In this document: positions 51,121 through 52,187 of the stretch, piece by piece | How the letters are laid out: each line of letters starts with the position of its first letter | Numbering within the stretch: the stretch's first letter is position 1 | DNA from: Escherichia phage vB_EcoM_FT | Sequence record: MT682710.1 | DNA: 64,000 nucleotides | Strand: one strand, 5' to 3' | Position numbers and translations under genes: made by a program | The notes under the pieces: generated by a model | The model's database searches: none | Told to the model about the DNA's origin: nothing | What the model saw: the letters and a program-made list of their open reading frames with translations, nothing else

Positions 51121-51981
51121 TTACACCGCCATTTTTCCTTTAATTGGCGGATGAGATACATAGTTGTTAAGAACAAAATTATGCGGCTTTGCAAATTGAC
51201 TCAACCAAAATACCTGCGATTCTGTGTCCCATTCATCAAATTCATCTGGAAATTTTAATTGTAATTCGCATAAATCCATAGGTTCACGACGTAAAATTTC
51301 TTTACATTGTTCTACGTGATTCATATAGATATGAGTATTACCACCAGAAAATATCAAATCTCCCGGAATAAGATTACACATCTTAGCTACAATATGAACT
51401 AACGCAGCATATGATGCAATATTAAATGGAAGGCCGAGAAAAACATCTACTGATCGTTGATACCACTGCAAATCTAAATAGCCATTACGCACATTAAACT
51501 GATAGAACATATGACAAGGTGGTAATGCCATATATTTAAGTTCAGCTGGATTCCACGCCGACACAATTTGACGCCTATCATTTGGCAGTTTTTTAATACG
51601 ATCAATAACTTCTATAATTTGGTCTACACCACCAAAATCACGCCACTGTTTTCCATAAATTGGACCAAGTTCACCGCTATGGTATCCTAAATCTTTTGCT
51701 TGATTTTCGTAATTTTCATCCCAAACTGTTTTGCCTTGGATTAACGAATCATGTTGAATTAATCGCAAATCATTGACATTTGTGCTTCCCGATAAAAACC
51801 ATATTAGCTCAGCAATGCAAGCTTTCCAGGCGAGCTTCTTAGTTGTTACTGCAGGAAAACCTTTAGTTAAATCCCAGCGTAATTTAGTACCGAACAAAGC
51901 AATTGTTCCTGTGCCTGTTCGGTCATCGGTTTCGTAGCCATTTTCCAGGATATCTTTAATTAAAAATTGGTATTGTTTCAT
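51121..51981 (-). CDS. td: thymidylate synthase, uninterrupted (no group I intron)
   Basis: 286 aa from MKQYQ...; TS motifs (PPCH, DLGPIYG); continuous ORF. Confidence 0.93.
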
Positions 51982-52187
51982 TAGTTCATCCAAGAATATG
52001 TAGAAGGATATTTGGCAAAGTTAGGCTTATATCCTAATTTAACCATTTGTTTTGCTTTGCGAGTAAATCCTAAAGAACGCTCACCTTTAAGATATTGTTT
52101 TGGTGTCATAGGCCCTTGATGCATCTGCCGGCAAATAAAAAGGGCCATAGCATTAGGAACATCCTTAACTTTTAATTTATTGCTCAT
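51981..52187 (-). CDS. small basic hypothetical protein inserted between frd and td
   Basis: 68 aa; start overlaps frd stop (ATGA) and stop overlaps td start (TAATG). Confidence 0.55.

What the first reader, a model, noticed from the sequence alone, without database searches (positions are those of the whole stretch)
51981..52187. 68-aa basic ORF inserted at the frd-td junction with overlaps at both ends
From memory, frd and td in T4 directly overlap (ATGA). Here a 68-aa lysine-rich ORF ([25 protein letters not shown]...) lies between them. Its ATG overlaps the frd stop in ATGA and its stop overlaps the td ATG in TAATG, preserving translational coupling. This looks like a compact gene insertion in a nucleotide-metabolism operon, with unknown function.
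Basis: partly seen in the sequence, partly recalled or inferred. Interest (0 to 1): 0.45.

Follow-up and report, generated by a model that had tools for sequence, protein, structure and literature searches.

The report
Small basic gene between frd, td
A real but uncharacterised gene for a 68-amino-acid, very basic phage protein sits between the dihydrofolate reductase and thymidylate synthase genes; the identical gene is already annotated as "hypothetical protein" in more than a hundred T4-like phages, and T4 is the unusual relative with nothing in this slot.

Summary
A 68-aa ORF lies at 51981-52187 on the minus strand. Its ATG overlaps the frd stop (ATGA) and its TAA overlaps the td start (TAATG). 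It is a genuine gene: dN/dS is 0.08-0.22, it belongs to PHROG 9550, and the identical protein is deposited from 332 contigs as "hypothetical".

The "insertion into a T4-like junction" reading is only partly right. The frd-td interval is a polymorphic slot. About 363 Tequatrovirus-type records carry an unrelated 115-aa gene, td.1. About 133 carry this ORF. Only a few tens, T4 and close kin, have the direct overlap. Diverged orthologues sit immediately upstream of td in Klebsiella, Enterobacter and Serratia phages.

In Tequatrovirus and Dhakavirus the ORF plus the first ~55 nt of td form a ~260-bp island that is 93-100% identical. The flanking frd and td are only 71-99% identical. That points to recent lateral exchange.

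The parts
51981..52187 (-). ORF68: 68-aa, net +11 protein, PHROG 9550, function unknown. It is the subject of the finding.
   Evidence: ORF and overlaps. (PHROG 9550, E 1.3e-45). (dN/dS 0.08-0.22). (AF2 pLDDT 86.4, helices 13-24, 29-39, 43-49). (identical protein in NCBI/UniRef, on 332 contigs).
52184..52765 (-). frd (dihydrofolate reductase, 193 aa). Its TGA stop overlaps the ORF68 ATG (ATGA at 52187-52184).
   Evidence: The true start is the ATG at 52765 (MIKLVFAY...), as in the annotated homologues. The longer 202-aa ORF is an artefact of the ORF caller.
51121..51981 (-). td (thymidylate synthase, 286 aa, no intron here). Its ATG shares one base with the ORF68 TAA stop (TAATG).
   Evidence: The intron-bearing relative UTI-E4 carries the same ORF68.
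51927..52187 (-). Low-diversity cassette of about 260 bp: ORF68 plus td nt 1-55. It is shared at 93-100% identity by all Tequatrovirus and Dhakavirus carriers compared, although their flanks are divergent.
   Evidence: window vs JS10: ORF 98.0%, td 75.0%, frd 80.8% nt identity. (near-identical tract at positions 577-840 of the frd-ORF-td alignment). (45 pairwise comparisons). (in 4 Dhakavirus sequences the left edge is 5 nt before the ATG and the right edge is at td +55).
52184..52188 (-). AATGA at the frd-stop/ORF68-start junction. It is the left copy of the 5-bp direct repeat that bounds the 204-bp indel relative to T4.
51978..51982 (-). AATGA at the ORF68-stop/td-start junction. It is the right copy of the 5-bp direct repeat.
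51946..51967 (-). Cluster of substitutions at td nt 15-36 linked to the cassette. They give Td D6F and F12L relative to T4 and T6.
   Evidence: Window, UTI-E4 and JS10 read [16 protein letters not shown]4 and T6 read MKQYQDLIKDIFENG. The other genera have D or E at position 6.
52765..53010 (-). Upstream 81-aa gene (PHROG 3183). Its TAA overlaps the frd ATG (TAATG), so three consecutive junctions in this operon are start/stop overlaps.

Best explanation
ORF68 is a genuine accessory protein-coding gene of T4-like phages (PHROG 9550). It occupies a polymorphic slot immediately upstream of td.

Expression (inferred from anatomy). I found no promoter-like or terminator-like site between frd and td. 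The gene therefore lies inside the frd-td polycistronic message, and its translation is most likely coupled to that of frd (ATGA overlap). It uses the same 5' context that T4 uses for td. Ribosomes are then passed on to td through the TAATG overlap.

Product. It is a 68-aa protein with net charge +11. The model shows three short helices, with extended N- and C-terminal segments packed against them. The fold has no detectable relative.

Function (inferred, low confidence). Strong positive charge is conserved across the whole family. So are several basic residues: K4, K6 and K34 nearly invariant, R20 invariant. I think the protein most likely acts early in infection by binding a polyanion, most probably nucleic acid. 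It would be a dispensable accessory factor.

Evolution (shown).
- The slot holds td.1 in most Tequatroviruses, ORF68 in about a quarter, and nothing in T4.
- Klebsiella and Enterobacter phages have td.1-like genes plus ORF68 between frd and td.
- ORF68 plus the first ~55 nt of td has recently moved between Tequatrovirus and Dhakavirus. The likely route is recombination in the short conserved frd-3' and td-5' sequences.
For: Real gene.
- dN/dS is 0.08-0.22.
- The family is conserved down to about 30% identity, with an invariant or near-invariant core: K4, K6, P11, R20, K34, F41, M48, L51, G52, Y53, P55.
- PHROG 9550 is matched by all 31 members tested.

Operon and coupling.
- Overlaps are confirmed.
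- No promoter-like or terminator-like site lies between frd and td.
- There is no significant RNA structure at either junction, z about 0.
- The ORF-td overlap is conserved in Klebsiella, Kanagawavirus and Serratia phages.

Protein.
- AF2 gives pLDDT 86.4 and pTM 0.65.
- Net charge is +7 to +17 and pI 9.7-10.6 in all 31 members.
- There is no paralogue in the window.

Slot polymorphism.

Ancestral position upstream of td. Divergence from those orthologues is of the same order as for td.

Cassette transfer.
Against: There is no direct evidence of expression; I found no proteomic or ribosome-profiling data.

The functional part rests only on charge and conservation.
- There is no Pfam, NCBIfam, PADLOC or PDB sequence hit.
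- A basic surface could equally bind an acidic protein.

Outside Tevenvirinae, homologues sit among unrelated small genes and not near td. Linkage to td therefore gives no functional clue.

The low-diversity island could also reflect a selective sweep or biased inheritance, rather than neutral exchange.
Confidence: 0.6

Rival explanations
1. ORF68 is a counter-defence or host-takeover factor. It would bind and neutralise an acidic host protein rather than nucleic acid. Its spread as a small cassette would then reflect positive selection in an arms race.
For: - It sits in a presence/absence/replacement slot flanked by conserved genes. This resembles the polymorphic internal-protein loci of T-even phages, whose products inhibit GmrSD variants (PMC12373910).
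- The ORF68 allele shows much less diversity than the td.1 allele. ORF68: 92 records at >=99% and 44 at 95-99%. td.1: 6 at >=99% and 319 at 95-99%.
- In non-T4 phages, homologues lie in arrays of small early-type genes.
Against: - No PADLOC or anti-defence family hit.
- No partner is known.
- The diversity comparison depends on which reference sequences were chosen.
- Nothing links presence of the gene to host range.
Confidence: 0.25
2. ORF68 is an accessory subunit or regulator of thymidylate synthase or of the dNTP-synthesis complex. Translational coupling would produce it in fixed proportion to Td.
For: In five Tevenvirinae lineages the gene always abuts the td start with a 1- or 4-nt overlap, even where other genes separate it from frd.
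Against: - T4, and the roughly 363 td.1-type records including T2 and T6, lack it yet have a functional Td.
- Homologues in Phapecoctavirus and other large phages are not next to td or to any nucleotide-metabolism gene.
- Adjacency is therefore explained well enough by descent.
Confidence: 0.1
3. The cassette is a selfish element with biased inheritance, analogous to intronless homing by free-standing endonucleases. ORF68, or a nuclease it recruits, would cause breaks in ORF68-less junctions. The clustered td 5' substitutions would be target-site immunity changes.
For: - There is a sharp island of 93-100% identity in divergent flanks, with the same edges in four Dhakavirus genomes.
- Six clustered substitutions at td nt 15-36 include the radical D6F change and are strictly linked to the ORF.
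- This footprint resembles the co-conversion tracts described for Seg and Mob genes (PMC2988022).
Against: - No GIY-YIG, HNH or other nuclease signature.
- No conserved acidic residue is available for metal binding.
- From my own recollection, 68 aa is shorter than any functional homing endonuclease I know of.
- Family members in other phages are not inserted next to conserved genes.
- The pattern seen in Dhakavirus is compatible with a single transfer event.
Confidence: 0.04
4. The ORF is a chance open frame or a decaying remnant with no function.
For: There is no experimental evidence of expression. It is absent from most Tequatroviruses.
Against: - dN/dS is 0.08-0.22 over large divergence.
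- Full-length conservation extends to about 30% identity across unrelated phage groups.
- The AF2 model is confident.
- P(open frame by chance) is about 0.008.
Confidence: 0.01

Closest known systems
PHROG 9550 (unknown function): the identical 'hypothetical protein' of many Tequatrovirus and Dhakavirus genomes (e.g. AIS73551.1, UniRef A0A449C5N9), orthologues in Klebsiella phages (Marfa, PhiKpNIH-6), Enterobacter phage CIP9 and Serratia phages 4S and WSPA, and distant homologues such as phAPEC8 gp235
   Same: Same family. The match is full-length at E 1.3e-45. Size (66-108 aa), strong basicity and the conserved motifs (KxKV..P, R20, K34, FG, M..LGY.P) are shared.
   Different: Nothing distinguishes the window's copy from many deposited ones. 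Only Tevenvirinae members are linked to td. Phapecoctavirus and metagenomic members lie among unrelated small genes.
td.1 of phage T6 (GenBank AY262134; PHROG 1928), the commoner occupant of the frd-td slot
   Same: Same genomic slot between frd and td. It is also a small gene of unknown function. It co-exists with ORF68 in Klebsiella, Kanagawavirus and Serratia phages.
   Different: It is an unrelated protein of 115 aa (hhalign probability 0.3%). It is separated from frd and td by 20- and 44-nt spacers rather than overlaps. It is the more diverse allele.
The T4 frd/td ATGA overlap. I recall Purohit & Mathews 1984 as the original description; the overlap itself is verified here in NC_000866.
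   Same: ORF68 starts at exactly the position and 5' context (..ACGGAATCAGTATATAAATGA) where td starts in T4.
   Different: In the window that initiation site serves ORF68, and td is coupled one gene further on through TAATG. The T4 arrangement is the rare state.
Free-standing homing endonuclease cassettes of T-even phages (SegF, SegG, MobE) and their co-conversion tracts
   Same: A small gene lies between conserved genes, is polymorphic among relatives, and is surrounded by a short tract of co-inherited flanking sequence that includes substitutions in the neighbouring gene (PMC2988022).
   Different: There is no nuclease domain or catalytic residue, and the protein is only 68 aa. No biased inheritance has been shown.
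PeSL-mediated modular shuffling of ORFans in T4-type phages (Arbiol et al. 2010, PMC2839356)
   Same: Gain, loss and replacement of small genes of unknown function between closely related T4-type phages.
   Different: No promoter/stem-loop cassettes flank ORF68. The exchange edges lie in coding sequence, at the frd 3' end and td nt ~55.

Membership tests
PHROG 9550 (phage protein family, unknown function) | Full-length significant match to the family profile | tested here: met
   E 1.3e-45, residues 1-68 against profile 1-68 of 68. All 31 aligned relatives also match.
PHROG 9550 (phage protein family, unknown function) | Reading frame conserved under purifying selection | tested here: met
   NG86 dN/dS is 0.08-0.22 in the unsaturated pairwise comparisons.
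td.1 / PHROG 1928 (other occupant of the frd-td slot) | Sequence or profile similarity to td.1 | tested here: not met
   hhalign probability 0.3%. The two fall in different PHROGs.
Free-standing homing endonucleases (GIY-YIG, HNH) | Recognisable nuclease domain or catalytic motif | tested here: not met
   No Pfam hit at E<=10 for the protein and only scattered noise for the relatives. No conserved acidic or His/Cys cluster in the alignment.
Free-standing homing endonucleases (GIY-YIG, HNH) | Located between conserved genes, with a co-converted flank carrying target-site changes | tested here: inconclusive
   An island of ORF plus td nt 1-55 with linked D6F/F12L substitutions exists. It is equally explained by a single recombination event.
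Free-standing homing endonucleases (GIY-YIG, HNH) | Biased (super-Mendelian) inheritance in mixed infection, and site-specific cleavage | not testable with these tools
   This needs phage crosses and cleavage assays.
Helix-turn-helix or other known DNA-binding folds | Structural similarity of a confident model to a known DNA-binding domain | tested here: not met
Translationally coupled operon genes | Start codon overlapping the upstream stop, stop overlapping the downstream start, and no intervening promoter or terminator | tested here: met
   ATGA and TAATG overlaps. No promoter-like or terminator-like site between frd and td. Actual coupling of translation has not been measured.
PeSL-flanked mobile ORFan cassettes | Early promoter plus stem-loop terminator at the cassette borders | tested here: not met
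   No such sites at 51900-52250. Junction RNAs fold no better than shuffled sequences.

The most novel reading that the evidence does not exclude
ORF68 defines a new small protein fold. Its 260-bp cassette (gene plus the first 55 nt of td, including a D6F change in Td) is spreading actively through Tequatrovirus and Dhakavirus. The cause would be either a counter-defence advantage or biased inheritance by a mechanism unlike any known homing endonuclease.
Probability: 0.12. Interest if true: 0.6.

Novelty: already known. Interest (0 to 1): 0.25.

Why it matters
As a sequence feature it is already catalogued, so the finding adds no new entity.

What the follow-up adds is context.
- The textbook T4 frd/td overlap is a rare, derived state of a three-allele slot: td.1, ORF68 or empty.
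- ORF68 has a confidently predicted fold with no detectable relative.
- A gene-sized island has crossed between two phage genera with edges only a few nucleotides from the gene start.

If the protein turned out to be a counter-defence factor or a nucleic-acid-binding regulator, it would be one more small, cheap-to-test T-even accessory gene. The natural trio of T4, T6 and ORF68-type phages would make a convenient system for such a test.

Tried and rejected
Family and fold searches that found nothing beyond PHROG 9550.
- Pfam, NCBIfam and PADLOC.
- PDB sequence profile.
- The first AF2 model, from 19 close sequences, was poor (pLDDT 61). It was replaced by a model from 31 diverse sequences.

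Other searches.
- A profile search of 1.84 billion representatives found only 11 clusters, all small phage proteins apart from one repetitive 1402-aa artefact, P0025.
- Genomic neighbourhoods of six distant homologues share no recurrent neighbour.
- RNA explanations were rejected. There is no real Rfam hit (one beta_tmRNA match at 14.5 bits against a gathering score of 84) and no stable structure at the junctions.
- There is no paralogue in the window.
- Literature searches by gene names, accessions and PHROG id found nothing about this gene.

Annotations in deposited records that my scans did not reproduce: 'DUF4858' (phage Shinka) and 'flagellar biosynthesis protein' (PYPS2T, VAC36).

A count I could not obtain: a direct count of T4-type junctions with an 80-nt junction probe failed because the tool joins split matches. 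The figure of 'a few tens' is therefore obtained by subtraction and from the ranking.

Full report
**1. What is in the sequence**

On the minus strand the window carries a T4-type operon: gene 32, frd.3, frd.2, frd.1, two small genes, frd, ORF68, td, nrdA.2, nrdA.1, nrdA.

- ORF68 occupies 51981-52187 and encodes 68 aa.
- Its ATG (52187-52185) overlaps the frd stop TGA (52186-52184), giving ATGA.
- Its TAA (51983-51981) shares a base with the td ATG (51981-51979), giving TAATG.
- The gene upstream of frd also ends in TAATG, so three successive junctions are overlaps.
- The window matches Escherichia phage HEMP5 at 100% over the 801 nt compared.
- td is uninterrupted here. The close relative UTI-E4 has the same ORF68 together with the td intron and its endonuclease gene, so ORF68 and the intron are independent.
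- T4 has the direct frd/td ATGA overlap.
- The window differs from T4 by exactly 204 bp, bounded by AATGA on both sides.

**2. It is a real gene and an already catalogued one**

- The protein matches PHROG 9550 (unknown function) end to end at E 1.3e-45.
- The identical sequence is in NCBI and UniRef (for example AIS73551.1 and A0A449C5N9, 'Uncharacterized protein n=17 Tevenvirinae') and was seen on 332 contigs.
- blastn finds the ORF in 164 phage records. tblastn finds it in 237, almost always annotated 'hypothetical protein'.
- Nei-Gojobori dN/dS between the window and its orthologues is 0.08-0.22 wherever dS is not saturated. Examples: window vs Klebsiella phage 0.22, WSPA vs 4S 0.12.
- A 68-codon open frame has a chance probability of about 0.008 at this base composition.
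No function has been assigned anywhere, and I found no paper that mentions the gene.

**3. The frd-td interval is a polymorphic slot, and T4 is the outlier**

- A T4 junction probe matches 514 records. In nearly all of them the two halves are split by about 416 bp or about 206 bp.
- The larger insert is a 115-aa gene named td.1 in the T6 record AY262134. It belongs to PHROG 1928 and is present in about 363 records, including T2, T6, RB6 and RB68.
- The smaller insert is ORF68, in about 133 records.
- An uninterrupted junction was seen only in T4 and close kin: T4T, RB55, RB59, vB_EcoM_112 and HY03. By subtraction that is a few tens of records.
- td.1 and ORF68 are unrelated (hhalign probability 0.3%).
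- T4's td 5' sequence matches T6, not the ORF68 haplotype.
- T6 has AAATGA at both the frd stop and the td start. The T4 junction is therefore most simply a deletion of td.1 between 6-bp repeats.

**4. ORF68 is an old resident of the position upstream of td**

- Klebsiella phage Clarke_MM3 and Enterobacter phage CIP9 (Kanagawavirus) have the order frd, td.1-like, td.1 paralogue, ORF68, td.
- Serratia phages WSPA and 4S have frd, td.1-like, ORF68, td.
- In every case ORF68 abuts td with a 1- or 4-nt overlap.
- Nucleotide identity of these orthologues to the window (79%, 72%, 64-67%) is of the same order as for td (67-72%). This is consistent with long co-residence.

**5. In Tequatrovirus and Dhakavirus it is a recently exchanged cassette**

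- Window vs Dhakavirus JS10: ORF68 is 98.0% identical (pS 0.076). td is 75.0% (pS 0.75) and frd 80.8%.
- The near-identical tract runs from the frd stop through ORF68 to td nt ~55, with 5 mismatches in 264 nt.
- Across ten genomes, ORF68 is 93-100% and td nt 1-55 is 93-100% identical. The last 400 nt of frd is 71-99% and td nt 56-540 is 73-99%.
- In four Dhakavirus sequences the divergence from Tequatrovirus stops 5 nt before the ORF68 ATG and resumes at td +55. This is compatible with one transfer.
- I infer that the crossovers lay in the short conserved frd-3' (..CAGTATAYAAATGA) and td-5' (GAAAATGGCTACGAAACCGA) sequences.
- The cassette carries six clustered td substitutions (nt 15-36), giving D6F and F12L. 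All other lineages have D or E at position 6.
- Synonymous sites are conserved too, so the explanation is recent common ancestry rather than protein-level constraint.
- The ORF68 allele is also less diverse than td.1.
- Whether the spread is neutral, selected or biased cannot be decided from sequence alone.

**6. The protein**

- The family is small and confined to phages. A profile search of 1.84 billion representatives found 11 clusters, ten of them 70-96-aa proteins and one a repetitive 1402-aa artefact. An indexed search found 40 clusters at 90% identity.
- Members outside Tevenvirinae lie in arrays of small genes with no recurrent neighbour and no td nearby. They include Phapecoctavirus, such as phAPEC8 gp235 at 43% identity, and unclassified large-phage contigs.
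- In the 31-sequence alignment, R20, M48, G52 and P55 are invariant. K4, K6, P11, K34, F41, L51 and Y53 are nearly invariant.
- All 31 members are strongly basic, with net charge +7 to +17 and pI 9.7-10.6.
- With this alignment AlphaFold2 gives a confident model: pLDDT 86.4, pTM 0.65, and helices at 13-24, 29-39 and 43-49 with extended termini.
- There are no Pfam, NCBIfam, PADLOC or PDB sequence hits.
- A canonical helix-turn-helix domain or a nuclease is therefore not supported.

**7. How it most likely works**

Shown:
- It is a conserved coding gene.
- It lies in the frd-td operon with no promoter-like or terminator-like site of its own between frd and td.
- Its start and stop overlap its neighbours.
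- There is no special RNA structure at the junctions.

Inferred:
- Translation by termination-reinitiation from frd, using the same site that T4 uses for td, followed by hand-over to td.
- An early, dispensable accessory protein whose conserved positive charge and conserved basic residues point to binding a polyanion, most likely nucleic acid. I put this at roughly 35%.

Rivals:
- A counter-defence or host-takeover factor binding an acidic protein (about 25%). The support is the arms-race-like slot polymorphism and the analogy with the T-even internal-protein loci (PMC12373910).
- A partner of Td or of the dNTP-synthesis complex (about 10%). This is weakened by the gene's absence from T4, T2 and T6 and by the unlinked homologues elsewhere.
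- A selfish, homing-like cassette (about 4%). The footprint fits but there is no nuclease feature.
- A non-functional ORF (about 1%).

**8. Verdict**

It is partly misleading: it is not a novelty relative to its lineage, and T4 is the derived state. The feature is an already known 'hypothetical protein' family. What remains of interest is the apparently new fold, the conserved basic character, and the sharp cross-genus cassette.

Noticed in passing
window 51121-51981 (-); compare L001 2731-3282 and 1406-1720: td is intronless in the window. The otherwise 99% identical phage UTI-E4, and also fPS-2, PM133 and T6, carry the td group I intron with its homing endonuclease gene. By eye, the window's sequence around the intron insertion site (roughly 51410-51470) differs from T4's exon junction at several synonymous positions.
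   Followed up: partly
L020 1642-1989 (T6); L003 3712-4381; L004 3664-4342; L005 3569-3949: td.1 (PHROG 1928, unknown function) is the majority occupant of the frd-td slot in Tequatrovirus, in about 363 records. It occurs as two tandem diverged paralogues in Klebsiella and Kanagawavirus phages. It has no Pfam family above the gathering score; the only hit is a sub-threshold DUF5960 match (E 0.065) to the phage F2 copy.
   Followed up: partly
window 52765-53010 (-) and 53022-53354 (-): Two small genes lie between frd.1 and frd: 81 aa (PHROG 3183) and 110 aa (PHROG 3566). Both are of unknown function and have no counterpart in T4, where frd.1 directly precedes frd. This looks like another variable slot in the same operon.
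   Followed up: partly
window 55441-55540, between gene 32 (54532-55440) and the next gene (55541-56194): Only about 100 nt separate gene 32 from the next gene. T4 carries the homing endonuclease gene segG immediately beyond gene 32, so the window phage appears to lack segG.
   Followed up: no
window 51946-51967 (-), td codons 6 and 12: The Td of all ORF68-carrying Tequatrovirus and Dhakavirus phages compared has Phe at position 6, where every other lineage examined has Asp or Glu. It also has Leu at position 12. The effect on the enzyme is unknown.
   Followed up: partly
public records MZ502379 (Shinka), NC_054944 (PYPS2T), MZ571829 (VAC36), AP018814 (T6): Likely mis-annotations. ORF68 is labelled 'DUF4858' or 'flagellar biosynthesis protein', neither of which my Pfam scans reproduced. 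The 738-bp ORF lying between the two td pieces in T6, at the position where the intron endonuclease gene sits in T4, is labelled 'RNA polymerase sigma factor for late transcription'.
   Followed up: partly
window 54491-54509 (-): A strong terminator-like hairpin (8 pairs, 6 of them G-C, followed by a T run) lies just downstream of gene 32. Promoter-like sites follow it, upstream of the frd.3-frd.1 genes.
   Followed up: no
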